DNA from: Bacillota bacterium | GTDB taxonomy: Bacteria; Bacillota; Clostridia; Lachnospirales; Bianqueaceae | Length of the DNA stretch: 64,000 nucleotides | Assembly: GCA_017634575.1 (NCBI GenBank) | Contig: JAGBND010000075.1 | Coordinates: 6,399 to 70,398, forward strand | Reading direction: 5' to 3' | Shown here: positions 5,307 to 18,230 of the stretch, piece after piece | Layout of the letters: each line of letters starts with the position of its first letter | Position numbering within the stretch: the stretch's first letter is position 1 | The notes under the pieces: generated by a model | What the model was told of the DNA's origin: nothing | Databases searched by the model: none | The model's input: the letters and a program-made list of their open reading frames with translations, nothing else | Position numbers and translations under genes: made by a program

Positions 5307-7097
5307 ATGGAAATCACAAACAGCATCCGCTATGTCGGCGTGAACGATCATCAGATTGATCTTTTTGAGGGACAGTACAAGGTGCCTCATGGCATGGCTT
5401 ACAACTCTTATCTGATTCTGGACGAGAAGGTCGCTATCATGGACAGCGTGGACCAGCATTTCGGTCATGAGTGGCTGGATCAGATTCAGAAAATCCTCGG
5501 CGATAAGGCGCCGGACTATCTGGTCGTCCAGCATATGGAACCGGATCATTCCGCCAATATCGCCAACTTTATGAATGTTTATCCCACAGCCACCATCGTC
5601 TCTTCGGCCAAGGCTTTCGCCATGATCCAGAACTTCTTCGGCACCGGCTATGAGGATCGCCGTATTGTGGTGAAGGAAGGGGACACCCTCAGCCTCGGCA
5701 GCCACGTGCTGAACTTTGTCGCAGCCCCCATGGTGCATTGGCCGGAGGTTATGATGACCTACGAAAGCACCGAGAAAGTGCTGTTTTCCGCAGACGGATT
5801 CGGCAAATTCGGCGCCAACGATGTTTCTGAGCCCTGGATCGATGAAGCCAGGCGCTACTATATCGGAATCGTTGGAAAATATGGAACCCAGGTGCTCAAC
5901 GTCCTGAAAAAGGCCGCCGGCCTGGATATTGAAAAGATCTGCCCGCTTCATGGACCGGTGCTTAGTGAAAACCTGGGCTACTATATCGGCCTGTATAAAA
6001 CCTGGGCCAGCTATACGCCGGAGGAGGACGGCATCTTTATTGCCTATACATCCGTTTACGGACATACCAGAAAAGCAGTGGAGACCCTGGCTTCCAAACT
6101 GGAAGCTGCCGGCTGCCCCAAGGTAGTGGTGAACGATCTGGCCAGATGCGATATGGCTGAGGCTGTGGCCAATGCGTTCCGTTATCCCAAGATGGTGCTG
6201 GCGACCACCACCTACAACGCCGATATTTATCCCTTCATGCGCGATTTTATCAGCCGCATCACCGAGCACGGCTATCAGGGCCGCACCGTCGCGCTGATTG
6301 AAAACGGTTCCTGGGCGCCCCAGGCGGCCAAGGTGATGACCGGCATGTTTGAGAAGAGCAAGAACGTGCAGATTCTGGAGCAGGTGGTGCATATCAAATC
6401 CGCCCTTTCGGAGGAATCCAAAGAACAGCTGGACCAGCTCTCGGACGTGCTGTGCGCCGAATATATCGCCAAGGATCCCAAAGCCGCCAATAAAAACGAC
6501 CTGAAGGCCCTTTTCAAGATCGGCTACGGGCTGTATGTGATTACCTCCAATGACGGCAGCCGGGACAACGGCATGATCGGCAATACGGTAACCCAGCTGA
6601 CGGACAATCCCAACCGGGTTGCGGTAGCCATCAACAAGAAAAACTATTCCTATCATGTTATCAAACAGACCGGCATCATGAATGTGAATTGCCTGTCCAA
6701 GGATGCGCCCTTCAGCATTTTCGAGCGCTTTGGATTCCAGAGCGGACGCTCCGTAAATAAATTCGAAGGGACAGAGCTGATGCGCTCCGACAACGGCCTG
6801 GCCTTCCTGCCCCGGTATATCAATGCCTTTATGTCTTTGAAGGTGGAGCAATATGTGGATTTTGAATCCCACGGACTTTTCATTTGCTCCATTACCGAAG
6901 CCAGGGTTATTTCTGATGCGGAAACCATGACCTATACCTATTATCAGTCAGACGTAAAGCCGAAGCCCCAGACAGAGGGCAAGAAGGGTTGGGTCTGCAA
7001 GGTCTGCGGATATATCTATGAAGGAGATCCCCTTCCCGAGGACTTTGTCTGCCCGCTTTGCAAGCACGGGGCGGCGGATTTTGAACCCATCGGCTGA
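5307..7097 (+). CDS. multidomain flavodiiron protein: diiron metallo-beta-lactamase fold, flavodoxin-like domain, flavin-reductase-like domain, C-terminal rubredoxin
   Basis: Diiron motif HxExDH in VVQHMEPDHSAN. A flavodoxin-like middle region, then a split-barrel flavin-reductase-like region (GLYVITSNDGSRDNGM). The C-terminus WVCKVCGYIYEGDPLPEDFVCPLCKHG has the two CxxC pairs of rubredoxin. Confidence 0.88.
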   Translation: MEITNSIRYVGVNDHQIDLFEGQYKVPHGMAYNSYLILDEKVAIMDSVDQHFGHEWLDQIQKILGDKAPDYLVVQHMEPDHSANIANFMNVYPTATIVSSAKAFAMIQNFFGTGYEDRRIVVKEGDTLSLGSHVLNFVAAPMVHWPEVMMTYESTEKVLFSADGFGKFGANDVSEPWIDEARRYYIGIVGKYGTQVLNVLKKAAGLDIEKICPLHGPVLSENLGYYIGLYKTWASYTPEEDGIFIAYTSVYGHTRKAVETLASKLEAAGCPKVVVNDLARCDMAEAVANAFRYPKMVLATTTYNADIYPFMRDFISRITEHGYQGRTVALIENGSWAPQAAKVMTGMFEKSKNVQILEQVVHIKSALSEESKEQLDQLSDVLCAEYIAKDPKAANKNDLKALFKIGYGLYVITSNDGSRDNGMIGNTVTQLTDNPNRVAVAINKKNYSYHVIKQTGIMNVNCLSKDAPFSIFERFGFQSGRSVNKFEGTELMRSDNGLAFLPRYINAFMSLKVEQYVDFESHGLFICSITEARVISDAETMTYTYYQSDVKPKPQTEGKKGWVCKVCGYIYEGDPLPEDFVCPLCKHGAADFEPIG

Positions 7098-7188: not shown

Positions 7189-8799
7189 ATGGCCAGAGAA
7201 TTCTACTGCTCAAACGAGACAACCGTTGTTCAGACAGCGGAAGGAAAGCTGAAGGGCTACTATCTGGATGGCATTTTTGCTTTTCAGGGAATTGAATATG
7301 CCTACGCGGACCGCTGGCAGATGCCGGTGCCGCCAAAAAGCTGGGAAGGCATCAAGGATGCCACGAACTATGGATATATCTGTCCCACCATGGGCGAACC
7401 CGCCCCTTCCGGAGAGATCCTGATTCCTCACCGGTTCTGGCCGTCCAACGAGCATTGCCAGAACCTGAACCTGTGGACTCCCACTCTGGATCCGCAGGCG
7501 AAGAAACCGGTGCTGGTCTGGCTCCACGGAGGCGGCTATGCCAATGGCTCCTCCATCGAGCAGGTCTCTTATGAAGGCGATGCCCTGGCTGAATACGGCG
7601 ACGTGGTGGTTATTACCGTGAATCACCGGCTGAATATTCTTGGTTTCCTGGATATGTCATCCTTTGGCGAAAAGTATGCCAATTCCGTCAATGCCGGCAT
7701 GGCCGATTTGGTTGAATGCCTGCGCTGGGTGAAACGCAATGTGGGCGCCTTTGGCGGCGATCCCGACAATGTAACCATTTTCGGACAATCCGGCGGCGGC
7801 GGAAAAGTGGAAACCCTGATGCAGATTCCCGAAGCAGACGGCCTGTTCCAGAAAGGCATTATCATGAGCGGCCTCTTCAGAGGGCTCTTTACGCCGCCTG
7901 AGAAAATCGGGGAGCAGCACCGGAAGCTGGTCCTGGCGATCCTGAAGGAGCTTTCGATTCCGGAGGAGGAGGTCTCCCGCCTGGAGACGGTGCCTTACGA
8001 TGTGCTGGAGCGGGCCTACAATAAAGCCCAGTACAAGCTGATCAAGGAAGAGGATATCTACATCAGCTGGAATCCGGTGCCGAATGAGTTCTATGTGGGC
8101 GACCCCATGATCGTCGGCTTTACGGAGCATGCCAAAACCGTCCCGGTAATTGCCGGCACCGTTTTTGGGGAATTCACCTGCTTCGGCCCCATGCCGGATG
8201 AAGAAATGCCGGAAGAGGCGAAAATGGCCATGCTTCAGAAAATGTTCGGAGAAGAGACAGATGAGCTGATCCGGCTGTTCAAAAAAGCTTACCCGGATAA
8301 AGATATCACCCGCCTGGCCCTGGTGGACGCCGGAGCCAGAGGCGCCACCAATGACTTTATTGAAGCGAAAGCCCGCGTCTCTTCCGTGAAGGATTACCTC
8401 TATACCTTTGTGGTCGATTTCGATGTCAACGGCCGCCGTCCGGCCTGGCACTGCGCGGACATTTCCTTTGTTTTCTACAATACCCACCGTGTACCCTCTG
8501 CCAATATCGAAGAGGTAACGGATCTTCTGGAGGACGAGGTGGCAGGCGCGGTAACCTCCTTTGCCCGCAGCTCGGATCCCAATCATCCGGGGATGCGCAA
8601 GTGGGAAGCCTACAGCGATGAGAATCCCTGCACCATGGTCTTTGATGAAGAGACGGCCTGCCGAAAAGATTATGACCGCGAACTGATCAGACGGATCGAG
8701 GAAATCCAGCGAAAAGCCGGTTTTCAGATGATCAGCTCCTTTAAACAGGGCTTTGTGAAACGGATGGAATCCGGCGAGGGCGGGGACTGGATTTATTAA
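7189..8799 (+). CDS. type-B carboxylesterase (para-nitrobenzyl esterase-like alpha/beta hydrolase)
   Basis: Oxyanion-hole HGGGY (VWLHGGGYANGS) and nucleophile elbow GQSGGG (IFGQSGGGG). The ~536-aa length is typical of the COesterase family. Confidence 0.85.
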   Translation: MAREFYCSNETTVVQTAEGKLKGYYLDGIFAFQGIEYAYADRWQMPVPPKSWEGIKDATNYGYICPTMGEPAPSGEILIPHRFWPSNEHCQNLNLWTPTLDPQAKKPVLVWLHGGGYANGSSIEQVSYEGDALAEYGDVVVITVNHRLNILGFLDMSSFGEKYANSVNAGMADLVECLRWVKRNVGAFGGDPDNVTIFGQSGGGGKVETLMQIPEADGLFQKGIIMSGLFRGLFTPPEKIGEQHRKLVLAILKELSIPEEEVSRLETVPYDVLERAYNKAQYKLIKEEDIYISWNPVPNEFYVGDPMIVGFTEHAKTVPVIAGTVFGEFTCFGPMPDEEMPEEAKMAMLQKMFGEETDELIRLFKKAYPDKDITRLALVDAGARGATNDFIEAKARVSSVKDYLYTFVVDFDVNGRRPAWHCADISFVFYNTHRVPSANIEEVTDLLEDEVAGAVTSFARSSDPNHPGMRKWEAYSDENPCTMVFDEETACRKDYDRELIRRIEEIQRKAGFQMISSFKQGFVKRMESGEGGDWIY

Positions 8800-8816
8800 T
8801 GTTTTTTCTGGAGAAA

Positions 8817-8853
8817 AGACCGGATGCAAATCTTCCGGTCTTTCTTTTTTTTG
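8817..8853 (+). terminator. intrinsic terminator after the carboxylesterase gene
   Basis: agaccgga-tgcaaatct-tccggtct followed by ttctttttttt. Confidence 0.75.
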
Positions 8854-8882
8854 TTGAAAACTGCACGAATGCCTGCTATAAT
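8854..8882 (+). promoter_or_regulatory. near-consensus sigma-A promoter of the hydrogenase operon
   Basis: TTGAAA (8854-8859), 17 nt spacer, TATAAT (8877-8882), with TGc directly upstream of the -10. It lies about 85 nt upstream of hydC. Confidence 0.6.
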
Positions 8883-8966
8883 ATATCCGATATAGTGTCT
8901 GTGGGTAAGACATGCGCGTGTTTCCCTGCAGGTTATGTAAATAGTTGTTTAGGAGGATCTAAGCTT

Positions 8967-9464
8967 ATGCAAAAGAAAATCAGCACGCTCCCGTTTACCG
9001 GGACGCCTGAGCAGGAAGCCCAGCTCAAGGCTGTGATTGCTGAAAACTGCGATGATAAGAGCAACCTGATGGTTGTCATGCAGAAAGCCCAAGATATCTA
9101 TGGCTATCTGCCCATCGAAGTTCAGCAGATGATCGCTGATGGAATGGATGTTCCGCTGGAGAAGGTTTACGGCGTTTCTACATTCTATGCACAGTTTGCG
9201 CTTTCCCCGAAAGGAAAGTACAATATTTCCGTTTGCCTTGGAACAGCCTGCTATGTAAAAGGCTCCGGAGATGTTCTGGAAGAGCTGAAAAGCCAGCTTG
9301 GAATTGATGTGGATGAATGCACCGAGGATCGTAAATTCTCCCTGCAGGCATGCCGCTGCATCGGTGCCTGCGGTCTGGCTCCTGTTCTGACAGTTAACGA
9401 AGATGTTCATGGACGTCTGACCAAATCAGATGTCGCCGGCATTCTTGCCAAGTATAAAGAATAA
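8967..9464 (+). CDS. hydC: NuoE-like [2Fe-2S] subunit of an electron-bifurcating [FeFe]-hydrogenase (HydC/gamma)
   Basis: NuoE thioredoxin-like fold with Cys pattern CLGTAC...CRCIGAC. The ATG at 8967 is preceded by AGGAGG (8951-8956). The ORF-track start at 8799 would read through the terminator and promoter and is rejected. Confidence 0.85.
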   Translation: MQKKISTLPFTGTPEQEAQLKAVIAENCDDKSNLMVVMQKAQDIYGYLPIEVQQMIADGMDVPLEKVYGVSTFYAQFALSPKGKYNISVCLGTACYVKGSGDVLEELKSQLGIDVDECTEDRKFSLQACRCIGACGLAPVLTVNEDVHGRLTKSDVAGILAKYKE

Positions 9465-9468
9465 AACT

Positions 9469-9825
9469 ATGAAAATCGGAACCATTCAGCAACTTTTGAA
9501 CGCAGAAGTTCTGTGCTGTCCGGATGAGATGGACCGCCATGTTTATTCAGCCTGCGGTTCGGATATGATGAGCGATGTCCTTGCCTATGTAAAGGATCAG
9601 GCCGTGCTTCTGACCGGTCTTGTCAATCCTCAGGTAATCCGCACGGCGGAAATGATGGACATGGTTTGCATCGTATTCGTCCGTTCCAAACGCCCGTCTC
9701 TGGAGATGATTCATCTTGCGGAGGACAACGGCCTGGTGCTTATGTCTACAGAGATGCGTATGTACGATGCCTGCGGAACCCTTTATACAAATGGTCTTGT
9801 GGGAAAGGCGGTCAAGCATGCCTGA
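9469..9825 (+). CDS. DRTGG-domain protein (copy 1)
   Basis: 118 aa. The pattern SDMMSDVLAYV...AVLLTGL...IRTAEMMD...VFVRSKRP matches stand-alone DRTGG-domain proteins. It starts 4 nt after the hydC stop. Confidence 0.7.
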   Translation: MKIGTIQQLLNAEVLCCPDEMDRHVYSACGSDMMSDVLAYVKDQAVLLTGLVNPQVIRTAEMMDMVCIVFVRSKRPSLEMIHLAEDNGLVLMSTEMRMYDACGTLYTNGLVGKAVKHA

Positions 9826-10243
9826 CGCGTTGGTATTTCACTTCGATGTAGATGGAGAGAATTTTACATCTGCAGGGCAAGCTTCCACCGCGGTCAAAAG
9901 AAACCTAAGACAGCTCGGGCTGCCCTCTGAAATTATCCGGCGCGTGTCCATCGCTATGTATGAGGGCGAGATCAACATGGTCATTCATGCCAACGGCGGC
10001 GCTGCGGATGTCATCGTCCATGAAGACTGTATCGAAATCATCCTGGCTGATCATGGACCAGGCATCAAGGATGTTTCACTGGCGATGCAGGAAGGTTATT
10101 CGACGGCTCCCGACAATATCAGATCTCTCGGCTTCGGAGCAGGAATGGGCCTTCCGAATATGAAACGATATACAGATTCGATGAAAATTGATACGGAACT
10201 TGGTGTCGGAACCACCATCACCATGAAGGTTAATCTGACATAA
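9818..10243 (+). CDS. stand-alone GHKL/HATPase_c protein (anti-sigma-factor/RsbW-like serine kinase fold), copy 1
   Basis: 141 aa. N-box-like EGEINMVIHA, G1 DHGPGI, G2 GFGAGMGLPN. There is no DHp/His phosphotransfer domain. The ATG at 9818 overlaps the DRTGG stop by 8 nt; the ORF-track start at 9716 would lie inside the upstream gene. Confidence 0.75.
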   Translation: MPDALVFHFDVDGENFTSAGQASTAVKRNLRQLGLPSEIIRRVSIAMYEGEINMVIHANGGAADVIVHEDCIEIILADHGPGIKDVSLAMQEGYSTAPDNIRSLGFGAGMGLPNMKRYTDSMKIDTELGVGTTITMKVNLT

Positions 10244-10263
10244 CAAAGCCCTGGAGTGCAGAT

Positions 10264-11520
10264 ATGGCAAATGATTTTACCTATGAACATTCCGTTCGGC
10301 TGGACCCTCGCAGGTGCACGGGCTGTACCAACTGCCTGAGGCGCTGTCCGACAGAGGCGATCCGTATCAAGGATGGACATGCTGTGATCAGCGAAGAACG
10401 CTGTATCGACTGCGGTGAATGCATCAGAATCTGCAGCAACAAAGCAAAGAGAGCTGTCAGCGGAAAACTGGATTCCATGAAACGCTTCCGTTACAAGATC
10501 GCGCTTCCCGCGCCTTCCCTGTACGGTCAGTTTGACAATCTGGACGATGTGGATTACGTTTTGAACGGCTTGCTGAAGATCGGATTTGATGATGTGTTTG
10601 AGGTTTCCAAGGCCGCAGAGCTTGTCTCGGCCTATACCAGACAATATCTGAAGGTTGATGGAATTGTTCATCCCGTCATCAGCTCCGCTTGTCCTGTCAT
10701 TGTACGTCTGATTGGTCTGAGATATCCTTCCCTGCAGGAGAACATTATGCATATGCTGCCTCCCATGGAGGTGGCCGCAAAGCTTGCCAGGGAAAGAGCC
10801 CTTAAGAACCATCCCGAATTGAAGAGCGAAGATATCGGCGTCTGCTTTATCAGCCCCTGTCCGGCTAAGGTCAGCTATGTCAAAAACGGCTTTGCGGACT
10901 ACACCTCTCAGGTGGACGAGGTAGTATCCATGAGCGATATCTACTTCCAGCTGATCGGCGAGATGTCGAGAGACAGTGAGATTCAGATTTCCACCGAATC
11001 CGGCATGGTCGGCATCGGCTGGGCCAGCTCCGGCGGCGAAGCCACGGCGCTTTTCAACGAGGAATACCTTGCGGCGGACGGAATCGAGAATGTAATTAAT
11101 GTTCTGGAGCAAATCGAGAATGGCAACATTCCGGCAGTTAAGTTTATTGAGCTGAATGCGTGTCCCGGCGGCTGCGTCGGCGGCGTGCTGACGGTTCAGA
11201 ATCCTTTCATTGCCAAAGCAAGGCTTCAGAATCTAAGACAGTTTCTGCCGGTGTCTCAGAACTTCCTGAGCCCGGATGAAGAACAGTATATTCCTGAAAT
11301 GTATCTGTTCAATGAACTGCCGGTTTACAAGCCCATCAATAAGCTTTCGGACAGCATCGTTAAGTCCATGCGGATGATGGCAGACATACAAAAACTGAAG
11401 GATACGCTTCCCGGCATAGACTGCGGCGCCTGCGGCGCGCCCTCCTGCCGCGCCTTTGCGGAGGATGTCGTCAAAGGAATTGCATCGTGCGACCAGTGCA
11501 TCCTTCTGGGAAAGAGATAA
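10264..11520 (+). CDS. hydS: HydS-type putative sensory [FeFe]-hydrogenase (2x [4Fe-4S] ferredoxin domain, H-domain, C-terminal Cx2Cx4Cx16C cluster; no PAS)
   Basis: CTGCTNCLRRCP and CIDCGECIRIC at the N-terminus. Degenerate H-cluster motifs SSACP, SPCPAK and ELNACPGGCVGG. The C-terminus is CGACGAPSCRAFAEDVVKGIASCDQC. Confidence 0.8.
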   Translation: MANDFTYEHSVRLDPRRCTGCTNCLRRCPTEAIRIKDGHAVISEERCIDCGECIRICSNKAKRAVSGKLDSMKRFRYKIALPAPSLYGQFDNLDDVDYVLNGLLKIGFDDVFEVSKAAELVSAYTRQYLKVDGIVHPVISSACPVIVRLIGLRYPSLQENIMHMLPPMEVAAKLARERALKNHPELKSEDIGVCFISPCPAKVSYVKNGFADYTSQVDEVVSMSDIYFQLIGEMSRDSEIQISTESGMVGIGWASSGGEATALFNEEYLAADGIENVINVLEQIENGNIPAVKFIELNACPGGCVGGVLTVQNPFIAKARLQNLRQFLPVSQNFLSPDEEQYIPEMYLFNELPVYKPINKLSDSIVKSMRMMADIQKLKDTLPGIDCGACGAPSCRAFAEDVVKGIASCDQCILLGKR

Positions 11521-11529
11521 GAGGTTCGT

Positions 11530-11856
11530 ATGAAAGTTGGAGATTTGCCCGGCCATGGGTTCAAGGCCTTAGCGCTCCCGGATCCGGACCGCAGCATTGA
11601 CGGTGTTTACATCGGCGATCTGCTTTCCTGGGTAATGGGCCGCGCGCAGATGGACAATGCCTGGATTACCATCATGTCCAACAACAACGTCATAGCGGTG
11701 GCATCTCTGGCGGACTGCTCCTGCGTTCTTCTGGCGGAAGGCGTGGAGTTACCGGAAGATCTGATCGAATTGGCAAACCAGAAATTCATCAATGTGCTTA
11801 CCAGTGAGAAAAGCGCGTACGAGATTGCTGTTTTGCTTTCCGGACTCCTTTCATGA
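11530..11856 (+). CDS. DRTGG-domain protein (copy 2, diverged)
   Basis: 108 aa. GDLLSWVMGRA...AWITIMSN...VIAVASLAD...VLLAEG has the same layout as copy 1 but a changed loop motif. Confidence 0.6.
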   Translation: MKVGDLPGHGFKALALPDPDRSIDGVYIGDLLSWVMGRAQMDNAWITIMSNNNVIAVASLADCSCVLLAEGVELPEDLIELANQKFINVLTSEKSAYEIAVLLSGLLS

Positions 11857-12584
11857 CTCACTACTATTACGACTTTCATGTGCATTCCTGCCTCTCGCCA
11901 TGCGGCGATAACGACAATACGCCCAACAATCTTGCGGGCATGGCCAGCCTGAACGGGGTTACCCTGATGGCGTTGACTGACCATAACAGCTCCCGCAACT
12001 GTCCGGCCTTTTTTGAGGCGGCCAGACGCTACGGCATTGTTCCGGTGGCAGGAATGGAGCTGACAACCGCGGAGGATATCCATGTCGTCTGCCTTTTCGA
12101 GACACTGGAAGAAGCCCTTGCCTTCAATGACGAGGTAGATACGCGCAGAATCCGGATCAGGAACCGGGAAGATATTTTCGGTGAACAGCTGATCCTGAAC
12201 GGTGAAGATGAAATCATCGGACGCGAAGAAGATCTGCTGATCAATGCGACAACGATAACCCTTGATGAAGCGCCGGAGCTGGTTAAAAAGTACCGCGGTA
12301 TTTGTTATCCGGCTCATATCGACAGACCGGCCAACGGCTGTATTGAGATTCTTGGCGAGTTTCCGCATTATGCGGGATTTCACATTGCCGAGCTGAATGA
12401 TGCGGCCAACAAGGAAGCTTACATTGAAAAATATCATCTGCAGGATCTGAAGATCCTTGTCAGTTCGGATGCCCACTATCTGGATCAGCTCAGAGAAGAG
12501 AACGATTATCTCGATATCGATGACGAGCCCTATTCCAGCGCGCTGGTCAGAAGACGTCTGTTTGAGTATTTGAGGTCCCTATGA
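11853..12584 (+). CDS. PHP-domain (polymerase/histidinol-phosphatase) metal-dependent phosphoesterase
   Basis: The N-terminal DFHVHSCLSPCGD and LTDHNS motifs are typical PHP metal ligands. The start overlaps the upstream stop (ATGA). Confidence 0.8.
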   Translation: MTHYYYDFHVHSCLSPCGDNDNTPNNLAGMASLNGVTLMALTDHNSSRNCPAFFEAARRYGIVPVAGMELTTAEDIHVVCLFETLEEALAFNDEVDTRRIRIRNREDIFGEQLILNGEDEIIGREEDLLINATTITLDEAPELVKKYRGICYPAHIDRPANGCIEILGEFPHYAGFHIAELNDAANKEAYIEKYHLQDLKILVSSDAHYLDQLREENDYLDIDDEPYSSALVRRRLFEYLRSL

Positions 12585-13141
12585 AAGAATTATCGCTGAA
12601 CATACTGGATATCGCCGAGAATTCGGTGAAGGCCGGAGCCGGCCTGACGCAGATTCTGATCGACGAAAAAGATCAGGTGCTGACCCTTTCCATTATTGAT
12701 GACGGCTGCGGCATGGAACCGGAGGTTGTCCGCTCCGTGGTGGATCCTTTTTACACCACCCGCACCACCAGAAAGGTTGGAATGGGCGTTCCGCTTCTGA
12801 AGCTGGCCTGCGAGCAGGCAGACGGAAAGCTGACCATTGAATCCGTTACGGCGAAGCAGGATCCGGAGCATCACGGCACGAAGGTGGAAGCGACCTTCCA
12901 TACGGATCATATCGATTTTACGCCTCTGGGCGATGTGGTAAGTTCCATCACCACCTTGATTCAGGGACATCCGGATACGGATTTTCTCTTCAGACATACC
13001 AAAGATGGAAAAGAGGTCAGTGTTGACACCAGGCAGCTGAGGCAGATTCTTGAGGATGTGCCTTTGTCCAGCTGGGATGTCATCCAGTGGATCGACTCGT
13101 TTCTGCGCGAGCAGTACGACGATTTTAATACAGTAACCTAA
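12581..13141 (+). CDS. stand-alone GHKL/HATPase_c ATP-binding protein, copy 2
   Basis: 186 aa. N-box LDIAENSVKAGA, G1 DDGCGM, G2 KVGMGVPLL. No DHp domain. The start overlaps the PHP stop (ATGA). Confidence 0.75.
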   Translation: MKELSLNILDIAENSVKAGAGLTQILIDEKDQVLTLSIIDDGCGMEPEVVRSVVDPFYTTRTTRKVGMGVPLLKLACEQADGKLTIESVTAKQDPEHHGTKVEATFHTDHIDFTPLGDVVSSITTLIQGHPDTDFLFRHTKDGKEVSVDTRQLRQILEDVPLSSWDVIQWIDSFLREQYDDFNTVT

Positions 13142-13161
13142 AGAAAGAAAGGAATAAACGA

Positions 13162-13533
13162 ATGAAAACATTAGCTGAACTGCAGGCTATCAAAAACAGA
13201 ATGAAAGACAAAGTCGTTCTGCGTGATGGTCTGGAAGGTATCCGTGTCGTCGTCGGCATGGCTACCTGCGGTATCGCAGCAGGTGCCCGTCCCGTACTGA
13301 ACGCGCTGGTTCAGGGCGTTAACGAAGAGAACCTTGAAGGCAAGGTCTCTGTTACTCAGACCGGCTGCATCGGCATCTGCCAGTTTGAGCCCGTCGTAGA
13401 GGTCTTTGAGCCCGGCAAGGAAAAGACCACCTATGTCAAGATGACTCCTGAAAAAGCGAAACGCGTGATTGATGAGCATCTTAAGGGCGGCAAGGTCGTT
13501 GCTGAGTACACCATCGGCGCTGCACAAGCTTAA
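13162..13533 (+). CDS. thioredoxin-like [2Fe-2S] ferredoxin (small hydrogenase-associated subunit)
   Basis: 123 aa with Cys pairs MATCGIAAG and TGCIGICQFEP. It sits immediately upstream of the NuoF-like gene, as in other HydABC clusters. Confidence 0.75.
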   Translation: MKTLAELQAIKNRMKDKVVLRDGLEGIRVVVGMATCGIAAGARPVLNALVQGVNEENLEGKVSVTQTGCIGICQFEPVVEVFEPGKEKTTYVKMTPEKAKRVIDEHLKGGKVVAEYTIGAAQA

Positions 13534-13548
13534 AGGGAGGTAACATTT

Positions 13549-15369
13549 ATGATTCGTTCACAAGTCCTGATCTGTGGCGGAACCGGCTGTACTTCTTCCG
13601 GTTCTATGTCCATTCAGAATGAGTTCGAAAAAGCGCTCGACAAGTACAACCTGACCGATGAGATCAAGCTGGTCCGTACCGGCTGCTTCGGTCTTTGCGC
13701 TTTGGGCCCGGTCGTTATCATCTACCCGGACGGAACCTTCTACAGCCGTGTATCTCCTGACGATGTCGATGAAATCGTTGAAGAGCATCTGCTGAAGGGC
13801 CGTCGTGTTGAGCGCCTTGTCTACGACGATCATGGCGCTGTTGCTCCTGATGAAATCGGAAACATTGCCCTTTCCGACACTGCTTTCTACAAAACCCAGG
13901 AACGTGTCGTCTTAAGAAACTGCGGTGTTATCGATCCTGAAAACATTGATGAATACATTGCCATGGACGGCTATGCCGCTCTGGGCAAGGTTCTTACCGA
14001 GATGACCCCTGAACAGGTCATTGAAGAAGTTTCCAAATCCGGTCTTCGCGGCCGAGGCGGCGGCGGATTCCCCACCGGACGCAAATGGTCTCTGTGCGCG
14101 CCCAATAAGGCACCTCAGAAATATGTTGTCTGCAACGCTGATGAAGGCGACCCCGGTGCTTTCATGGACCGTTCCGTTCTGGAAGGCGATCCTCATGCCA
14201 TTATTGAAGCCATGGCGATCTGCGGCTATGCCTGCGGTGCCACCAAAGGCTATGTGTATGTCCGTGCCGAGTACCCGATCGCTGTTAAACGTCTCAGCAT
14301 CGCCATCGCCCAGGCCAGAGAATACGGGCTGCTGGGCAAGAACATCTTCGATTCCGGCTTTGATTTTGATCTGACCATCCGTCTTGGCGCAGGCGCTTTC
14401 GTGTGCGGCGAGGAAACCGCTCTGATGACCTCCATCGAAGGAAACCGCGGCGAGCCCCGTCCGAGACCTCCGTTCCCGGCAGTCAAAGGTCTGTATGGTT
14501 CTCCCACAGTCGAGAACAACGTTGAGACCTTCGCGAACATTCCTCAGATCATCCTGAAGGGTGCTGACTGGTTTGCTTCCATGGGTACCGAGCGCTCCAA
14601 AGGAACCAAGGTCTTTGCTCTTGGCGGCAAGATCAATCATACCGGTCTGGTGGAAATCCCCATGGGTACGCCTCTGAAGCATATCATCTACGATATCGGC
14701 GGCGGCATTCCCAACGGCAAGAAATTCAAGGCGGTTCAGACCGGCGGTCCTTCCGGCGGATGTATCCCGGCCAGCCTGATTGATACCGAAGTTGATTACG
14801 ATAACCTGACCTCCATCGGCTGCATGATGGGTTCCGGCGGTATGATTGTCATGGATGAGGACAACTGTATGGTCGATATGGCCAAGTTCTTCCTTGATTT
14901 CACGGTTGATGAATCCTGCGGTAAATGTACCCCCTGCCGTGTGGGCACCAAGCGTATGCTGGAAATCCTTGACAAGATCACTTCCGGAAAAGGAACGCTG
15001 GAAGATATCGACCGTCTGGAAGAACTGGCACAGTATATCAAGACCAACTCTCTTTGCGGTCTGGGCCAGACTGCCCCGAACCCGGTTCTGGCAACCCTGC
15101 GCTTCTTCCGCGACGAGTACATTGCCCATGTTGTAGACAAGAAGTGCCCGGCCGGCGTCTGCAAAGACCTGCTGACCTTCACCATCGACAAAGACAAATG
15201 TATCGGCTGCGGCATGTGCGCCCGTAACTGCCCGGTGAACACCATCGTCAAGACTGACTATGTGGCTCCCGGACATAAGCTGCCGTCTTACCACATCAAC
15301 GCCGACAAATGTATCAAGTGCGGCGCCTGCATGGCTAACTGTAAGTTCAAAGCCATCAGCAAACAGTGA
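13549..15369 (+). CDS. hydB: NuoF-like flavoprotein subunit of the bifurcating [FeFe]-hydrogenase (HydB/beta)
   Basis: FMN/NADH motifs GRGGGGFPTG and CNADEGDPGAF. N3-type cluster ESCGKCTPCR. N-terminal 2Fe-2S thioredoxin-like domain and two C-terminal ferredoxin motifs (CIGCGMCARNCP, CIKCGACMANC). Confidence 0.92.
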   Translation: MIRSQVLICGGTGCTSSGSMSIQNEFEKALDKYNLTDEIKLVRTGCFGLCALGPVVIIYPDGTFYSRVSPDDVDEIVEEHLLKGRRVERLVYDDHGAVAPDEIGNIALSDTAFYKTQERVVLRNCGVIDPENIDEYIAMDGYAALGKVLTEMTPEQVIEEVSKSGLRGRGGGGFPTGRKWSLCAPNKAPQKYVVCNADEGDPGAFMDRSVLEGDPHAIIEAMAICGYACGATKGYVYVRAEYPIAVKRLSIAIAQAREYGLLGKNIFDSGFDFDLTIRLGAGAFVCGEETALMTSIEGNRGEPRPRPPFPAVKGLYGSPTVENNVETFANIPQIILKGADWFASMGTERSKGTKVFALGGKINHTGLVEIPMGTPLKHIIYDIGGGIPNGKKFKAVQTGGPSGGCIPASLIDTEVDYDNLTSIGCMMGSGGMIVMDEDNCMVDMAKFFLDFTVDESCGKCTPCRVGTKRMLEILDKITSGKGTLEDIDRLEELAQYIKTNSLCGLGQTAPNPVLATLRFFRDEYIAHVVDKKCPAGVCKDLLTFTIDKDKCIGCGMCARNCPVNTIVKTDYVAPGHKLPSYHINADKCIKCGACMANCKFKAISKQ

Positions 15370-15388
15370 GAAAGGGGCCTTATAACGA

Positions 15389-17134
15389 ATGGAAATGGTA
15401 AATGTAAAAGTTAACGGTATTGCTGTCAGCGTACCGAAGGGCTCCACAATTCTCGAGGCAGCCCGCGCAGCAGGCGTCGAGATTCCGACCCTGTGCTTTA
15501 TGAAAGAAAAGAACGAGATCGGCGCATGCCGTATCTGTATTGTAGAAGCCACCGGCACCCGCGGCATGGTTACCGCCTGCGTCTATCCGGTAGCGGAGGG
15601 AATGGAAATTTCCACCAACACCGAAAAAGTCCAGAAAGCACGCAAGACGACCCTGGAGCTGATTCTTTCCACCCATGACAAGCAGTGCCTTTCCTGTCCG
15701 CGTTCCACCAACTGCGAGTTGCAGAAGCTTTGCCTGGAATATGGCGTAGATGAGAATGCCTTCGAAGGCTTCAAACCCACCTATGAGCTGGATACCACCA
15801 CGGCCCATCTGGTGCGCAACAACAACAAATGTATCCTGTGCCGCCGCTGCGTGGCAGCCTGCCAGGAGCAGTATGTTGGCGTTATCGGCGCAAATCTTCG
15901 CGGTATCGATACCAATATCGATGTACCCTTCGGCCTGAAGCTGAACGATGTTCCCTGTATCTCCTGCGGACAGTGTACCGTTGTTTGTCCCACCGGCGCA
16001 CTGACCGAAAAAGATGATACCGATAAGGTCTGGGCGGCTCTGGCTGATCCCACCAAACATGTTGTTGTTCAGACCGCTCCTTCCGTACGCGCGACCCTTG
16101 GCGAGTGCTTCGGCATGCCCATCGGCACCAACGTGGAAGGCAAGATGGTTGCCGCTCTTCGCCGTCTTGGCTTTGATAAGGTCTTCGACACCAACATGGG
16201 CGCCGACCTGACCATCGTCGAAGAAGCCAACGAGCTGGTTCAGCGTCTTCAGAACGGCGGAACCCTTCCCATGATCACCTCCTGCTCACCCGGATGGGTT
16301 AAGTTCTGCGAGCTGTATTATCCCGAACTTCTGGGACATCTGTCCTCCTGCAAATCTCCTCAGCAGATGACCGGCGCGGTTATCAAGACCTACTATGCCG
16401 AGAAGATGGGAATTGATCCCAAGGATATCTTCAGTGTCTCTGTGATGCCCTGCACCGCCAAGAAATTCGAGGTAGGCCGCGACGATCAGGCTGCTTCCGG
16501 TTATCCCGATGTGGATGTAGCCCTGACCACCCGTGAGCTTTCCAAGATGATCATGCGCGCAGGTCTGAAATTCACCGCTCTTCACGACGAGGAGTTTGAT
16601 GATCCGCTGGGCGACGACACCGGCGCAGCCGTGATCTTCGGCGCCACCGGCGGCGTTATGGAAGCTGCCTGCCGTACGGCCAATGCTTGGCTGAACGGCG
16701 ATGACAAACCGCTGGAGCTTAAAGCTGTCCGCGGCACTGCCGGCATCAAGGAAACCACCGTTGTGGTCGGCGGAAATGAGCTGAAGCTCTGCGTAGCCTC
16801 CGGTGCTGCCAATGCCAAGATTGTCATGGACAAGCTCGCTGCAGGCAATCCCGAAGGATGGAGCTTTATCGAAATTATGTGCTGCCCGGGCGGCTGCGTC
16901 AACGGCGGCGGTCAGCCCATCCAGCCTCAGTATGTGCGTGACACCGTGGACCTCAAGGCCGTCCGTGCGAAAGCCCTCTACGATCAGGATGAAGCCATGA
17001 CCCTTCGTATGTCTCATGAATCTCCTGTCATCAAGAAGCTTTACTCTGAGTGGTACGACGGCTTCGGCGGTGAGAAAGCGCATCACGCCCTCCACACCTC
17101 CTACGTAGCCCGCAAAAAATTCTCCAACAAATAA
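15389..17134 (+). CDS. hydA: catalytic [FeFe]-hydrogenase large subunit (HydA/alpha, M3-type)
   Basis: N-terminal 2Fe-2S, His-ligated and 2x[4Fe-4S] accessory motifs. H-cluster motifs TSCSPGW, MPCTAKKFE and EIMCCPGGCVNGGGQP. C-terminal small-subunit-like tail. Confidence 0.93.
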   Translation: MEMVNVKVNGIAVSVPKGSTILEAARAAGVEIPTLCFMKEKNEIGACRICIVEATGTRGMVTACVYPVAEGMEISTNTEKVQKARKTTLELILSTHDKQCLSCPRSTNCELQKLCLEYGVDENAFEGFKPTYELDTTTAHLVRNNNKCILCRRCVAACQEQYVGVIGANLRGIDTNIDVPFGLKLNDVPCISCGQCTVVCPTGALTEKDDTDKVWAALADPTKHVVVQTAPSVRATLGECFGMPIGTNVEGKMVAALRRLGFDKVFDTNMGADLTIVEEANELVQRLQNGGTLPMITSCSPGWVKFCELYYPELLGHLSSCKSPQQMTGAVIKTYYAEKMGIDPKDIFSVSVMPCTAKKFEVGRDDQAASGYPDVDVALTTRELSKMIMRAGLKFTALHDEEFDDPLGDDTGAAVIFGATGGVMEAACRTANAWLNGDDKPLELKAVRGTAGIKETTVVVGGNELKLCVASGAANAKIVMDKLAAGNPEGWSFIEIMCCPGGCVNGGGQPIQPQYVRDTVDLKAVRAKALYDQDEAMTLRMSHESPVIKKLYSEWYDGFGGEKAHHALHTSYVARKKFSNK

Positions 17135-17181
17135 TCGGATGCGTCAAGGACATTGTTCCTGAAATCATCTAAGTAAAAGCG

Positions 17182-17220
17182 AAACAGGCTGTGATTTTCT
17201 GATCACAGCCTGTTTTTCTT
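17182..17220 (+). terminator. intrinsic terminator ending the hydrogenase operon (possibly bidirectional)
   Basis: aaacaggctgtgat-tttc-(tg)atcacagcctgttt followed by ttctt. It is also A-rich on the 5' side. Confidence 0.8.
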
Positions 17221-17319
17221 TGACCACATATCGTTTTCCTGAGCATCTGACTTTTCTTTTATTGATATATTGGTATAAAAAAGATAGATAACCTCGATTT
17301 TGCATTCAGGCTGCGACCG

Positions 17320-18171: not shown

Positions 18172-18201
18172 TCATTTCCCTCCTGAACAGTTACAAAACG
18201 G

Positions 18202-18230
18202 TTTACAAGTCAGACGTTTTATATTATACT
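18202..18230 (+). promoter_or_regulatory. putative promoter of ispD-alaX
   Basis: TTTACA (18202-18207), 17 nt spacer, TATACT (18225-18230). Confidence 0.35.

What the first reader, a model, noticed from the sequence alone, without database searches (positions are those of the whole stretch)
9469..13141. Six-gene signalling-like module inserted between hydC and fdx-hydB-hydA
Seen in the sequence:
- Ten co-oriented genes run from 8967 to 17134.
- Intergenic distances range from -8 to +20 nt.
- There is one near-consensus promoter (8854-8882) and one strong terminator (17182-17220).
- The structural genes of a HydABC-type bifurcating [FeFe]-hydrogenase are split: hydC (NuoE-like) sits at the 5' end and fdx-hydB-hydA at the 3' end.
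- In between lie 3.7 kb encoding DRTGG, GHKL ATPase, HydS-type sensor hydrogenase, DRTGG, PHP phosphoesterase and GHKL ATPase.
- None of the six proteins carries a DNA-binding domain, receiver, DHp/His box, STAS, sigma factor, PAS or GGDEF/HD-GYP domain.

Because of that last point, the output cannot be a canonical two-component or partner-switching circuit.

Established knowledge: sensory [FeFe]-hydrogenases (T. maritima HydS, T. mathranii HydS) have been studied spectroscopically, and their genes often neighbour bifurcating hydrogenases.

Inference: to my knowledge the pathway downstream of the sensor through DRTGG, GHKL and PHP proteins has not been worked out. Tight translational coupling to the structural genes suggests a stoichiometric, possibly post-translational regulator of HydABC (H2- or redox-dependent phosphorylation or nucleotide switching).
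Basis: partly seen in the sequence, partly recalled or inferred. Interest (0 to 1): 0.72.

Follow-up and report, generated by a model that had tools for sequence, protein, structure and literature searches.

The report
Hydrogen-sensor gene block inside a hydrogenase operon
The window carries a widespread but functionally unsolved five-gene "hydrogen sensor" block, here merged into the operon of an electron-bifurcating hydrogenase. Its conserved neighbours and natural gene fusions point to the proteins most likely to bind the sensor, which the field still lacks.

Summary
In detail: ten co-oriented, tightly packed genes at 8967-17134, with the stated domains and no canonical output domain.

The "six-gene module" is really two units.
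- **Sensor block:** DRTGG1, a SpoIIAB-like GHKL ATPase, a group D (M2e, TamHydS-type) [FeFe]-hydrogenase, DRTGG2 and PHP.
- **Enzyme block:** HydC-HydE-HydD-HydB-HydA. The second GHKL is HydE/Tte0891, a known orphan of this block.

All 80 close relatives keep the window's gene order. In 84 distant loci, spanning at least three phyla, the two blocks are co-linear (24), divergent (11) or the sensor block stands alone (11).

Ten of the 150 best protein-cluster representatives are fusions, all in gene order: DRTGG1~HydS, GHKL1~HydS or HydS~DRTGG2. This argues for one physical complex. DRTGG2 sits where group C sensors carry PAS.

The PHP protein models confidently and resembles nucleic-acid- and nucleotide-acting PHP enzymes, not protein phosphatases.

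The link between M2e sensors, kinases and bifurcating hydrogenases was published in 2010-2012. The mechanism was still open in April 2026, and the output remains unknown.

Verdict: a new member of a known but uncharacterised kind. Interest is moderate to high, because it yields directly testable candidate partners.

The parts
8854..8882 (+). sigma-70-type promoter-like site (TTGAAA-17-TATAAT with TG), about 85 nt upstream of hydC
   Evidence: 11 of 12 matches, the best site in the region; it sits just downstream of the terminator of the preceding carboxylesterase gene. It is a consensus match only; no transcript data were available.
8967..9464 (+). hydC: NuoE-like [2Fe-2S] subunit of the bifurcating hydrogenase. 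It is placed at the front of the operon only in this clade.
   Evidence: PF01257, 166 bits; hydC comes first in the related loci; in distant loci it sits after PHP, next to hydE.
9469..9825 (+). DRTGG1: small DRTGG-domain protein, proposed adaptor or ligand-binding partner of GHKL1 and of the N-terminus of HydS
   Evidence: PF07085, 24.7 bits; its profile matches the DRTGG domains of 3L2B and 2IOJ; fused to GHKL1 in L081; fused to the N-terminus of HydS in P0142 and P0191; present (or fused) in 63 of 68 testable distant loci.
9818..10243 (+). GHKL1: stand-alone HATPase_c_2 ATPase of the SpoIIAB/RsbW type, the proposed transmitter
   Evidence: PF13581; TIGR01925 at 58 bits, below its cut-off; the nearest solved proteins are SpoIIAB (E 1e-6); the ATP-binding boxes are at least 90% conserved (E-x3-N-x3-H, D-x-G-x-G-I, G-F-G-A-G-M-G-L); adjacent to HydS in 74 of 75 distant loci; fused to HydS in P0157.
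10264..11520 (+). HydS: group D (M2e) putative sensory [FeFe]-hydrogenase. It has two N-terminal [4Fe-4S] motifs, the H-domain and a C-terminal Cx2Cx4Cx16C cluster, and no PAS domain.
   Evidence: domain content; all 16 cluster cysteines are invariant or nearly so in 46 diverse homologues; the sequence reads SSACP where HydA has TSCSP, and SPCPAK where HydA has MPCTAK; these are the marks described for M2e / TamHydS; 43% identical over its full length to a Thermoanaerobacterium homologue.
11530..11856 (+). DRTGG2: second DRTGG paralogue, proposed signal-receiving partner at the C-terminus of HydS, in the position PAS holds in group C sensors
   Evidence: PF07085, 28.8 bits; fused to the HydS C-terminus in seven separate 50%-identity clusters (P0139, P0146, P0169, P0207, P0240, P0250, P0268); present in 66 of 73 distant loci; the median S-d2 gap is -4 nt.
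11853..12584 (+). PHP-family metal-dependent phosphoesterase with complete metal ligands; substrate unknown
   Evidence: PF02811. D7, H9, H11, D43, H44, E69, H77, H155, D206 and H208 are invariant. AF2 pLDDT 94.7; the nearest structures are EndoQ, BAD_1165, RNase AM, the Pol III PHP domain, TM0559 and Cv1693; no protein-tyrosine phosphatases appear; present in 49 of 61 distant loci.
12581..13141 (+). GHKL2 = HydE/Tte0891: orphan histidine-kinase-type ATP-binding domain plus about 75 unassigned residues. It belongs to the enzyme block, not the sensor block.
   Evidence: PF02518; the nearest solved proteins are the catalytic domains of histidine kinases; always found as hydC-K2-fdx in distant loci, with median gaps of 1 and -2 nt; literature on A. 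woodii HydE and C. subterraneus tte0891; the single-sequence AF2 model was unusable.
13162..13533 (+). hydD: small thioredoxin-like ferredoxin-fold subunit with only three cysteines
   Evidence: PF01257, 28.6 bits; the sequence; literature on HydD.
13549..15369 (+). hydB: NuoF-like FMN/NADH subunit with Fe-S domains
   Evidence: PF01512, PF10589; TIGR01959 at 504 bits.
15389..17134 (+). hydA: catalytic [FeFe]-hydrogenase subunit of the bifurcating type
   Evidence: NF040763, 845 bits, above its 765 cut-off; the best solved match is A. woodii HydA1 (7Q4V, 695 bits), which has the same TSCSPGW motif.
17182..17220 (+). intrinsic-terminator-like hairpin (14-bp stem) followed by a T run

Best explanation
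**What the operon is.** It is a clade-specific merger of two widely conserved gene blocks.

- The enzyme block (HydC, HydE = GHKL2, HydD = fdx, HydB, HydA) encodes an Acetobacterium woodii-type electron-bifurcating [FeFe]-hydrogenase.
- The sensor block (DRTGG1, GHKL1, HydS, DRTGG2, PHP) encodes a soluble hydrogen sensor-transmitter split over several polypeptides.

**Proposed working, step by step.**
1. HydS, a group D hydrogenase lacking the fast proton path, reacts slowly with H2 and changes conformation. This rests on the literature on TamHydS.
2. DRTGG2 docks at the C-terminal Fe-S domain of HydS, where group C sensors carry PAS. DRTGG1 and GHKL1 dock at the N-terminal side. The four form one complex. 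This is inferred from conserved adjacency, overlapping genes and natural fusions.
3. GHKL1 is a SpoIIAB-type ATP-binding protein with all nucleotide boxes intact. It is the transmitter: depending on the state of HydS, it phosphorylates or sequesters a partner protein. This is inferred from homology.
4. DRTGG (or CBS, which replaces or joins it in some lineages) may add an adenine-nucleotide input. This is an inference from the CBS-DRTGG regulatory insert of family II pyrophosphatases.
5. PHP, an intact metal-dependent phosphoesterase, resets the system by hydrolysing a phosphoester. Its fold says a nucleotide-like substrate is more likely than a phosphoprotein.

**Output.** The regulated process is the supply or activity of the bifurcating hydrogenase. 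No output partner is encoded in the block. I weakly favour an unlinked protein partner that changes gene expression (about 0.35) over direct action on HydABC/HydE (about 0.25-0.3).
For: - **Conserved order in close relatives.** All 80 related genome loci keep the same gene order.
- **Conserved sensor block in distant loci** (35-62% identity to the distant query HydS; window HydS 43% identical to the Thermoanaerobacterium one), sampled from Bacillota, Aminicenantes and Dictyoglomaceae MAGs and from metagenomes. GHKL1 is present in 74 of 75 testable loci, DRTGG1 in 63 of 68, DRTGG2 in 66 of 73 and PHP in 49 of 61.
- **Tight coupling inside each block, a spacer between them.** Median gaps are -4, 25, -4 and -4 nt inside the sensor block, against 114 nt between PHP and hydC.
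- **Fusions in gene order.** DRTGG1~HydS (2 clusters), GHKL1~HydS (1), HydS~DRTGG2 (7), DRTGG~GHKL1 (L081) and CBS~GHKL1 (L082, L084). Several of them (clusters 1-4 and 6) recur in independent assemblies, one of them an isolate genome.
- **GHKL1** has SpoIIAB as its nearest solved relative and conserved ATP boxes.
- **HydS** carries the marks of group D.
- **PHP** has invariant metal ligands and a confident model.
- **Linkage to the enzyme block.** 35 of 46 determinable distant loci, and every determinable close locus, have the enzyme block nearby.
- **Literature.** Group D is regarded as putatively sensory, and H2 induces secondary-structure changes in TamHydS.
Against: - No experiment links any of these proteins to signalling. 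The sensory role of group D is itself only putative.
- No STAS, sigma factor, PP2C, receiver or DNA-binding partner is conserved in 164 loci, so a SpoIIAB-like mode lacks its usual partners.
- The invariant Ser in both DRTGG paralogues is a family-wide DRTGG trait, so it gives no specific support for DRTGG as a phospho-acceptor.
- PHP resembles nucleases and nucleotidases, not protein phosphatases. It is missing from 12 of 61 distant loci.
- Fusion proteins come from automatic gene calls. HydS and DRTGG2 are in the same frame in the window, so a single lost or misread stop codon would create such a fusion. Recurrence in independent assemblies argues against error but does not exclude it for every case.
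[quoted passage not shown] Signalling through that domain would therefore have to be conformational.
Confidence: 0.5

Rival explanations
1. The module is a stoichiometric, post-translational regulator that binds HydABC directly, for instance through HydE or HydD. It switches enzyme activity by phosphorylation or nucleotide exchange in response to H2 or redox state.
For: - In the window clade all ten genes form one tightly coupled operon. PHP and hydE overlap by 4 nt, which suggests similar expression levels.
- No transcription factor or sigma factor is conserved near the block.
- HydE is an orphan ATP-binding protein of the enzyme block that is absent from the purified enzyme and has no assigned role.
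- The sensor block lies next to the enzyme block in 35 of 46 determinable distant loci.
Against: - In 11 of 46 determinable distant loci the sensor block stands among unrelated housekeeping genes.
- In co-linear loci a median 114-nt spacer separates the blocks.
- A. woodii's operon shows HydE as part of the enzyme block (hydC-hydE-hydD-hydB-hydA), with no sensor genes inside it.
- No fusion joins a sensor-block protein to an enzyme-block protein among the 150 best representatives.
Confidence: 0.25
2. A nucleotide-centred device. DRTGG or CBS domains bind an adenine nucleotide or related small molecule, and PHP hydrolyses it. HydS gates this turnover, so the block integrates H2 with energy charge or a nucleotide messenger rather than running a protein phospho-relay.
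For: - PHP is closest in sequence profile and in fold to EndoQ, RNase AM, BAD_1165 and the pAp phosphatase Cv1693, which was solved with AMP and phosphate bound.
- CBS domains are fused to GHKL1 in L082 and L084.
- The DRTGG profile matches the CBS-DRTGG regulatory insert of family II pyrophosphatase. From general knowledge, that insert binds adenine nucleotides.
- DRTGG2 and PHP overlap by 4 nt in the window, and -4 nt is also the median gap across loci.
Against: - The block encodes no nucleotide cyclase or synthetase.
- GHKL proteins are not known to make messengers.
- PHP is absent from 12 of 61 distant loci, whereas GHKL1 is almost invariant.
- Ligand binding by these DRTGG proteins is untested.
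Confidence: 0.15
3. Not a signalling system. HydS is a slow catalytic hydrogenase with a metabolic role of its own, and the small proteins are ATP-dependent assembly, protection or repair factors for it or for HydABC.
For: - TamHydS does turn over H2, at low rates.
- Group D is listed as 'functionally undefined'.
- A. woodii HydE was said to be possibly involved in 'assembly or signalling'.
- No output domain exists in the block.
Against: - Stand-alone blocks hold no other redox partner for HydS.
- GHKL1 is of the SpoIIAB regulatory type, not a chaperone type.
- The closest relatives of group D are PAS-bearing sensors, and DRTGG2 occupies the PAS position.
- Heterologously produced TamHydS matures without these proteins.
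Confidence: 0.1

Closest known systems
Group D (M2e) putative sensory [FeFe]-hydrogenase clusters (TamHydS of Thermoanaerobacter mathranii; Cthe_0335, Athe_1292, Csac_1857, Cphy_3798, Teth39_1463)
   Same: - The sensor protein has the same architecture: two N-terminal [4Fe-4S] motifs, an H-domain without the proton-relay Cys, Ser in place of Met353, a C-terminal Cx2Cx4Cx16C cluster and no PAS.
- It has the same linkage to a kinase-like ATPase and to a bifurcating hydrogenase.
- The gene numbering in those genomes (sensor five to seven genes from hydA) fits the order S-d2-P-C-K2-f-B-A seen in my distant loci. That match is an inference from numbering only.
   Different: - In the window clade hydC has moved to the front and the two blocks are fused into one translationally coupled operon.
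- The published descriptions mention only 'kinases' (and, for T. mathranii, an AraC-type regulator). They do not mention the DRTGG pair, the PHP protein or the fusions.
Group C (M2f) sensory [FeFe]-hydrogenases with PAS (Thermotoga maritima HydS, Ruminococcus albus HydS, Thermoanaerobacterium saccharolyticum HfsB)
   Same: - Same H-domain changes and the same C-terminal four-Cys cluster.
- Also encoded next to bifurcating hydrogenases, together with kinase or phosphatase genes.
   Different: - Group C carries a fused PAS domain after the C-terminal cluster. Here that position is taken by a separate (sometimes fused) DRTGG protein.
- The companion phosphoesterase is PHP rather than PP2C. PP2C as the group C companion comes from general knowledge, not from a test here.
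SpoIIAB-SpoIIAA-SpoIIE / RsbW-RsbV-RsbU partner-switching modules
   Same: GHKL1 is a stand-alone protein of about 140 residues with an HATPase_c_2 domain. SpoIIAB is its nearest solved relative, and it shares the E-x3-N-x3-H, D-x-G-x-G and G-rich ATP boxes.
   Different: No STAS antagonist, PP2C phosphatase or sigma factor occurs in the window operon or recurs in 164 related loci. DRTGG and PHP proteins stand in their places, with no evidence that they play the same roles.
[NiFe] regulatory hydrogenase systems (HoxBC-HoxJ-HoxA of Cupriavidus necator, HupUV-HupT-HupR)
   Same: The logic is the same: a slow, H2-binding hydrogenase homologue is coupled to an ATP-binding kinase-type protein so that hydrogenase supply follows H2. 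This comparison rests on general knowledge and on the comparison drawn.
   Different: The metal site and protein families are unrelated. Those systems have a PAS-bearing histidine kinase and a DNA-binding response regulator. Here there is no His box, no receiver and no DNA-binding protein.
A. woodii / Caldanaerobacter HydABCD operon with HydE (Awo_c27000, Tte0891)
   Same: The enzyme half of the window operon matches it:
- HydA is most similar to A. woodii HydA1 (7Q4V, 695 bits, same TSCSPGW motif).
- GHKL2 corresponds to HydE/Tte0891, and fdx to HydD.
   Different: There the order is hydC-hydE-hydD-hydB-hydA with nothing in between. In the window the five sensor genes lie between hydC and hydE.
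CBS-DRTGG-CBS regulatory insert of family II inorganic pyrophosphatases (PDB 3L2B, 3L31)
   Same: The DRTGG1 and DRTGG2 profiles match its DRTGG domain. CBS domains are fused to GHKL1 in some lineages. Both cases pair a DRTGG module with a phosphohydrolase.
   Different: - Only the C-terminal half aligns.
- The name-giving D-R and T-G-G residues are replaced in DRTGG1.
- The partner hydrolase is PHP, not DHH.
- The proteins are free-standing.

Membership tests
Group D (M2e) [FeFe]-hydrogenase | No PAS domain after the H-domain | tested here: met
   no PAS family at E <= 0.01. The protein ends 6 residues after the last cluster Cys.
Group D (M2e) [FeFe]-hydrogenase | C-terminal Cx2Cx4Cx16C motif | tested here: met
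   the sequence reads C387-x2-C390-x4-C395-x16-C412. PF04060 at 51.8 bits; all four Cys are invariant in 46 homologues.
Group D (M2e) [FeFe]-hydrogenase | Proton-relay Cys (CpI C299) absent, and Met353 replaced by Ser or Thr | tested here: met
   SSACP aligns with TSCSP of HydA, and SPCPAK aligns with MPCTAK.
Group D (M2e) [FeFe]-hydrogenase | Two N-terminal [4Fe-4S] motifs and four H-cluster Cys ligands | tested here: met
   C18, C21, C24, C28, C47, C50, C53, C57 and C143, C199, C300, C304. All are invariant in the 46 homologues except C21, which is invariant in the closer 11-sequence set.
Group D (M2e) [FeFe]-hydrogenase | Phylogenetic placement in the group D clade together with TamHydS | not tested
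   No tree was built and the TamHydS sequence was not in hand. Indirect support only: 43% identity over the full length to a Thermoanaerobacterium homologue with the same neighbourhood.
Group C (M2f) sensory [FeFe]-hydrogenase | PAS domain fused after the C-terminal cluster | tested here: not met
Partner-switching module (SpoIIAB/RsbW type) | HATPase_c_2 serine kinase / anti-sigma protein | tested here: met
   PF13581, and SpoIIAB is the nearest solved relative. TIGR01925 scores only 58 bits against a cut-off of 135, so GHKL1 is not an orthologue of SpoIIAB.
Partner-switching module (SpoIIAB/RsbW type) | STAS-domain antagonist that is phosphorylated | tested here: not met
   none in the operon; no recurrent extra family in 84 distant loci.
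Partner-switching module (SpoIIAB/RsbW type) | PP2C phosphatase and a cognate sigma factor | tested here: not met
   Partners encoded elsewhere in the genome cannot be excluded.
Two-component system | HisKA/DHp phospho-acceptor domain and receiver domain | tested here: not met
   GHKL2 has only the catalytic ATP-binding domain, there is no HisKA and no Response_reg; the alignment shows no conserved His.
Electron-bifurcating HydABC(D) [FeFe]-hydrogenase | HydA catalytic subunit of the NADH-linked type, NuoF-like HydB with an FMN site, and NuoE-like HydC | tested here: met
   NF040763 at 845 bits (cut-off 765), plus TIGR01959 and PF01257 hits; 695 bits to A. woodii HydA1. Bifurcation itself cannot be tested with these tools.
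PHP-family protein-tyrosine phosphatases (CpsB/YwqE type) | Closest sequence or structural similarity to that subgroup | tested here: not met
   none appears among 17 profile hits or 38 Foldseek hits with E <= 1e-3. The top matches are EndoQ, BAD_1165, RNase AM, the Pol III PHP domain and Cv1693.
PHP superfamily metal-dependent phosphoesterase | Conserved His/Asp/Glu metal ligands on a distorted (beta/alpha)7 barrel | tested here: met
   invariant D7, H9, H11, D43, H44, E69, H77, H155, D206 and H208; confident model (pLDDT 94.7) with PHP folds as the best matches.
DRTGG domain family (PF07085) | Match to the family model and to solved DRTGG domains | tested here: met
   DRTGG2 scores 28.8 bits (above the cut-off) and DRTGG1 24.7 bits (0.5 below it); both profiles hit 3L2B and 2IOJ. 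The name-giving residues are not conserved in DRTGG1.

The most novel reading that the evidence does not exclude
The sensor block is a previously undescribed type of signal-transduction device.

In this reading a hydrogenase-derived H2 sensor is wired to a SpoIIAB-type ATPase through two DRTGG adaptor paralogues. The DRTGG proteins take the places that PAS, DHp or STAS domains hold in known systems. The reset or output enzyme is a nuclease- or nucleotidase-like PHP protein. The output could then be RNA or nucleotide cleavage (for example, control of hyd mRNA or of a nucleotide signal) rather than a protein phospho-relay.
Probability: 0.3. Interest if true: 0.8.

Novelty: new member of a known kind. 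Interest (0 to 1): 0.58.

Why it matters
**Why the system matters.** Electron-bifurcating hydrogenases set the hydrogen balance of gut, rumen and biogas fermenters. How these bacteria sense H2 has been an open question since the M2e 'sensory' hydrogenases were noticed in 2010-2012. In 2026 the only characterised group D enzyme still had no known interaction partner.

**What this locus and its relatives supply.**
- A concrete, short list of candidate partners: DRTGG1, a SpoIIAB-like ATPase, DRTGG2 and a PHP phosphoesterase.
- Evidence from natural fusions that at least three of them touch the sensor.
- A clean separation of the sensor block from the HydE-containing enzyme block.

**What it enables.** The signalling question becomes directly testable by pull-downs, ATPase assays with and without H2, a PHP substrate screen, and deletions in tractable relatives. 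If the transduction chain proves to be new, it would add a signalling architecture that is present in at least 595 species-level genomes.

Tried and rejected
1. **DRTGG as a STAS-like phospho-acceptor.** Both paralogues carry an invariant D-x-x-S (147 of 148 and 153 of 153). But the Ser is shared with the unrelated DRTGG protein AF_1212 (2IOJ, 'AMS'), so it is a fold-level trait. Its conservation does not depend on PHP being present. The idea is not supported, and not excluded.
2. **PHP as the protein phosphatase opposing GHKL1.** Neither the profile search nor the fold search finds CpsB/YwqE-type enzymes. Downgraded.
3. **Rex as the hidden output.** A rex gene is adjacent in only 4 of 164 loci. 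Rex-box-like sites with at most 2 mismatches precede 20 of 138 clusters, against 0 of 138 in shuffles. The window's best site has 4 mismatches, which is background level. Rex control exists in some lineages but is not part of the module.
4. **A conserved extra neighbour (TF, sigma, STAS).** Clustering 390 flanking ORFs from 84 distant loci gave only lineage-specific synteny. Pfam scans of neighbours of stand-alone blocks gave housekeeping genes.
5. **A leader RNA or riboswitch.** No Rfam match at E <= 1 in 8700-17400.
6. **HydA 'TSCSPGW' as an anomaly.** It is the norm in these loci (72 of 73) and is identical in the solved A. woodii HydA1.
7. **Structure of HydE/GHKL2.** The single-sequence AF2 model had pLDDT 43 and was unusable.
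8. **Technical dead ends.**
   - The 46-sequence alignment was too diverse for the locus scan.
Breadth had to come from a metagenome scan with a distant alignment and from single look-ups.

Full report
**1.

The ORF list and a junction check show ten + strand genes from 8967 to 17134. The gaps are 4, -8, 20, 9, -4, -4, 20, 15 and 19 nt. The best promoter-like site of the region (8854-8882; 11 of 12 matches plus TG) sits right after the terminator of the upstream carboxylesterase gene. A 14-bp hairpin followed by a T run lies at 17182-17220.

Pfam and NCBIfam give the following assignments:

| Gene | Coordinates | Assignment |
|---|---|---|
| hydC | 8967-9464 | NuoE-like HydC |
| DRTGG1 | 9469-9825 | DRTGG |
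| GHKL1 | 9818-10243 | HATPase_c_2 |
| HydS | 10264-11520 | 418 aa: 2x Fer4 + Fe_hyd_lg_C + PF04060 |
| DRTGG2 | 11530-11856 | DRTGG |
| PHP | 11853-12584 | PHP |
| GHKL2 | 12581-13141 | HATPase_c |
| fdx | 13162-13533 | small thioredoxin-like ferredoxin |
| hydB | 13549-15369 | NuoF-like HydB |
| hydA | 15389-17134 | HydA, above the NF040763 cut-off |

None of the six middle proteins matches a DNA-binding, receiver, HisKA, STAS, sigma, PAS or GGDEF/HD-GYP family at E <= 0.01. No Rfam family matches the region.

**2. What the sensor is**

The 418-aa protein meets the tested published marks of the M2e subclass, or 'group D', of [FeFe]-hydrogenases, whose only characterised member is TamHydS:
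- It has no PAS domain.
- It has two N-terminal [4Fe-4S] motifs.
- It keeps all four H-cluster cysteines.
- Ala stands where the proton-relay Cys would be (SSACP).
- Ser stands in place of Met353 (SPCPAK).
- It has an exact C-terminal Cx2Cx4Cx16C motif.

It is 43% identical over its full length to a Thermoanaerobacterium homologue.

The family is very large. The library of 50%-identity cluster representatives holds 424 with E <= 1e-30. At least 595 of the first 600 pattern matches among species-level genomes encode a relative.

**3. Census of neighbourhoods**

*Close relatives.* The 80 best genome loci have 62-78% sensor identity and come from gut and rumen MAGs labelled Acutalibacteraceae, Oscillospiraceae, Ruminococcaceae and Clostridia. 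All show the window's order, hydC-DRTGG1-GHKL1-HydS-DRTGG2-PHP-GHKL2-fdx-hydB-hydA, as far as each contig reaches.

*Distant relatives.* For breadth I used single look-ups of named distant homologues and a metagenome scan with a distant alignment. I annotated the loci (L081-L164) with iterated HMMs of the ten families; the three later look-up loci were read from their own gene tables. Two blocks emerge:
- **Sensor block:** DRTGG1-GHKL1-HydS-DRTGG2-PHP.
- **Enzyme block:** HydC-GHKL2-fdx-HydB-HydA.

Presence next to HydS in testable distant loci:

| Component | Present / testable |
|---|---|
| GHKL1 | 74 / 75 |
| DRTGG1 (free or fused) | 63 / 68 |
| DRTGG2 | 66 / 73 |
| PHP | 49 / 61 |

Arrangement of the two blocks in the 46 determinable distant loci:

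| Arrangement | Loci |
|---|---|
| Co-linear (sensor then enzyme) | 24 |
| Divergent | 11 |
| Sensor block alone, at least 8 kb on both sides | 11 |

The stand-alone blocks sit among tRNA synthetase, pyrimidine and other housekeeping genes.

Median gaps are -4, 25, -4 and -4 nt inside the sensor block, and 1, -2, 26 and 16.5 nt inside the enzyme block. Between PHP and hydC the median gap is 114 nt.

The lineages include Thermoanaerobacterium, Koleobacter, Acetivibrio, Lachnospiraceae, and MAGs labelled Aminicenantes, Dictyoglomaceae and Zixibacteria. The window clade is therefore a special case: hydC has moved to the front and the two blocks have merged into one coupled operon.

**4. The second GHKL is HydE**

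GHKL2 always travels with hydC and fdx. It corresponds to two described genes:
- tte0891, in the natural order hydC-tte0891-hydD-hydB-hydA of Caldanaerobacter.

In C. thermocellum the equivalent is annotated as a histidine kinase (Cthe_0339). The window HydA is most similar to A. woodii HydA1 (7Q4V), including its TSCSPGW motif.

**5. Fusions**

Ten of the 150 best cluster representatives are longer than a plain HydS. Pfam and my family HMMs identify them as follows:
- DRTGG1~HydS: P0142, P0191.
- GHKL1~HydS: P0157.
- HydS~DRTGG2: seven clusters.

Every fusion keeps the gene order. Full-length copies recur in independent assemblies for five of the eight clusters looked up, one of them an isolate genome. 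Other loci carry DRTGG~GHKL1 (L081) and CBS~GHKL1 (L082, L084).

This is the strongest evidence that HydS, DRTGG1, GHKL1 and DRTGG2 act as one complex. It also places DRTGG2 exactly where group C sensors have their PAS domain.

One caveat applies. In the window, HydS and DRTGG2 are in the same frame and 9 nt apart, so a single lost stop codon would make such a fusion. Some fusions could therefore be errors.

**6. The other parts**

*GHKL1.* SpoIIAB is its nearest solved relative (E 1e-6). The boxes E-x3-N-x3-H, D-x-G-x-G-I and G-F-G-A-G-M-G-L are at least 90% conserved, so it very probably binds ATP.

*PHP.* It has invariant metal ligands and a confident AF2 model (pLDDT 94.7). By profile and by fold it is closest to EndoQ, BAD_1165, RNase AM, Pol III PHP domains, TM0559 and the pAp phosphatase Cv1693. 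It does not resemble CpsB/YwqE protein phosphatases.

*The DRTGG paralogues.* Both match the DRTGG domain of CBS-pyrophosphatase and AF_1212. Their invariant Ser is a family-wide trait, so it says nothing specific about phosphorylation.

**7. Output**

Nothing in the conserved gene set can bind DNA. No STAS, sigma, PP2C or receiver protein recurs nearby. Rex is adjacent in only 4 of 164 loci. Rex boxes precede some clusters but not the window's.

The output therefore acts either on the enzyme-block proteins or on an unlinked partner. The data do not decide between these.

**8. Mechanism proposed**

I propose a split soluble H2 sensor-transmitter:
- HydS senses H2. This is literature-based and still putative.
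- DRTGG2, DRTGG1 and GHKL1 form the complex with it. This is inferred from synteny and fusions.
- GHKL1 is the ATP-dependent transmitter. This is inferred from homology.
- PHP resets the system on a phosphoester that is probably nucleotide-like. This is inferred from its fold.
- DRTGG or CBS may add a nucleotide input. This is speculative.

Confidence in this core model is about 0.5. It is favoured by the merged operon here and disfavoured by the stand-alone blocks elsewhere.

**9. Comparison with what is known, and novelty**

[quoted passage not shown] Land 2020 repeated it. The locus is thus a new member of a known kind of cluster, with a clade-specific gene order.

The following were not found in the searchable literature:
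- the DRTGG pair,
- the PHP protein,
- the separation into two blocks,
- the fusions,
- any mechanism.

The April 2026 TamHydS paper says the interaction partners still need to be identified. The library lacks many subscription papers, including Calusinska 2010 and Poudel 2016, so prior mention of these neighbours cannot be excluded.

**10. Score**

Interest is 0.58. The cluster type is known and common, but the analysis turns a recognised open question into a short list of testable protein partners.

Noticed in passing
L082:18010-20619 (Koleobacter methoxysyntrophicus CP059066): An 869-aa protein lies directly after hydA. It combines Fer4, Fe_hyd_lg_C, the PF04060 Fe-S domain, PAS and a sigma-54 activator domain. 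It looks like a HydS-type sensor fused to an enhancer-binding transcription factor, that is, a possible one-component H2-responsive regulator.
   Followed up: no
L084:7359-9552 (Dictyoglomaceae MAG): After the sensor block and HydC-HydE-HydD-HydB, the place of HydA is taken by a Fer2_4/NuoG/molybdopterin protein that looks like FdhA and is cut by the contig end. The sensor block may therefore also accompany NuoEF-type formate dehydrogenases.
   Followed up: no
L083:4839-7148 and 15545-18415 (Aminicenantes MAG): Heterodisulfide-reductase-like genes lie upstream of the cluster. FlpD and the small and large subunits of a [NiFe]-hydrogenase lie downstream. HydC sits after GHKL2 in this lineage.
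   Followed up: no
window 15389-17134 (HydA residues 297-303): HydA reads TSCSPGW where clostridial CpI has TSCCPGW. This looked odd at first. It is the norm in these loci (72 of 73) and is identical in the solved A. woodii HydA1, 7Q4V.
   Followed up: yes
window 13162-13533 (HydD/fdx): This small thioredoxin-like ferredoxin has only three cysteines (C36, C69, C73), so the first Cys pair of the usual [2Fe-2S] motif is incomplete. A. woodii HydD was likewise described as lacking a cofactor site.
   Followed up: partly
upstream regions of the clusters in L003-L149 (e.g. L101 -121, L024 -128, L047 -83): Rex-operator-like palindromes (TTGTTAA-N4-TTAACAA, at most 2 mismatches) precede 20 of 138 clusters, against none in shuffled controls. 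The window's upstream region has none better than background. A rex gene overlaps the start of the DRTGG~GHKL1 gene in L081.
   Followed up: partly
L082:7929-9071 and L167:1238-1831: Mobile or selfish insertions occur inside the sensor block. A DDE transposase lies between a DRTGG1/CBS fragment and CBS~GHKL1 in Koleobacter. A DUF433/PIN toxin-antitoxin pair lies between GHKL1 and HydS in a Zixibacteria MAG.
   Followed up: no
L102, L103, L141 (downstream of the first enzyme block): A second HydC-HydB-HydA set, without HydE or HydD, follows the first enzyme block. This gives sensor-K2-f-C-B-A-C-B-A.
   Followed up: no
window 5307-7097: A flavodiiron-type protein (metallo-beta-lactamase/ODP + flavin reductase + rubredoxin-like domain), a likely O2/NO scavenger, lies two genes upstream of the hydrogenase operon.
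   Followed up: no
window 10264-11853: HydS and DRTGG2 are in the same reading frame, separated only by TAA plus 9 nt. Loss of one stop codon would reproduce the HydS~DRTGG2 fusions seen in other lineages.
   Followed up: partly
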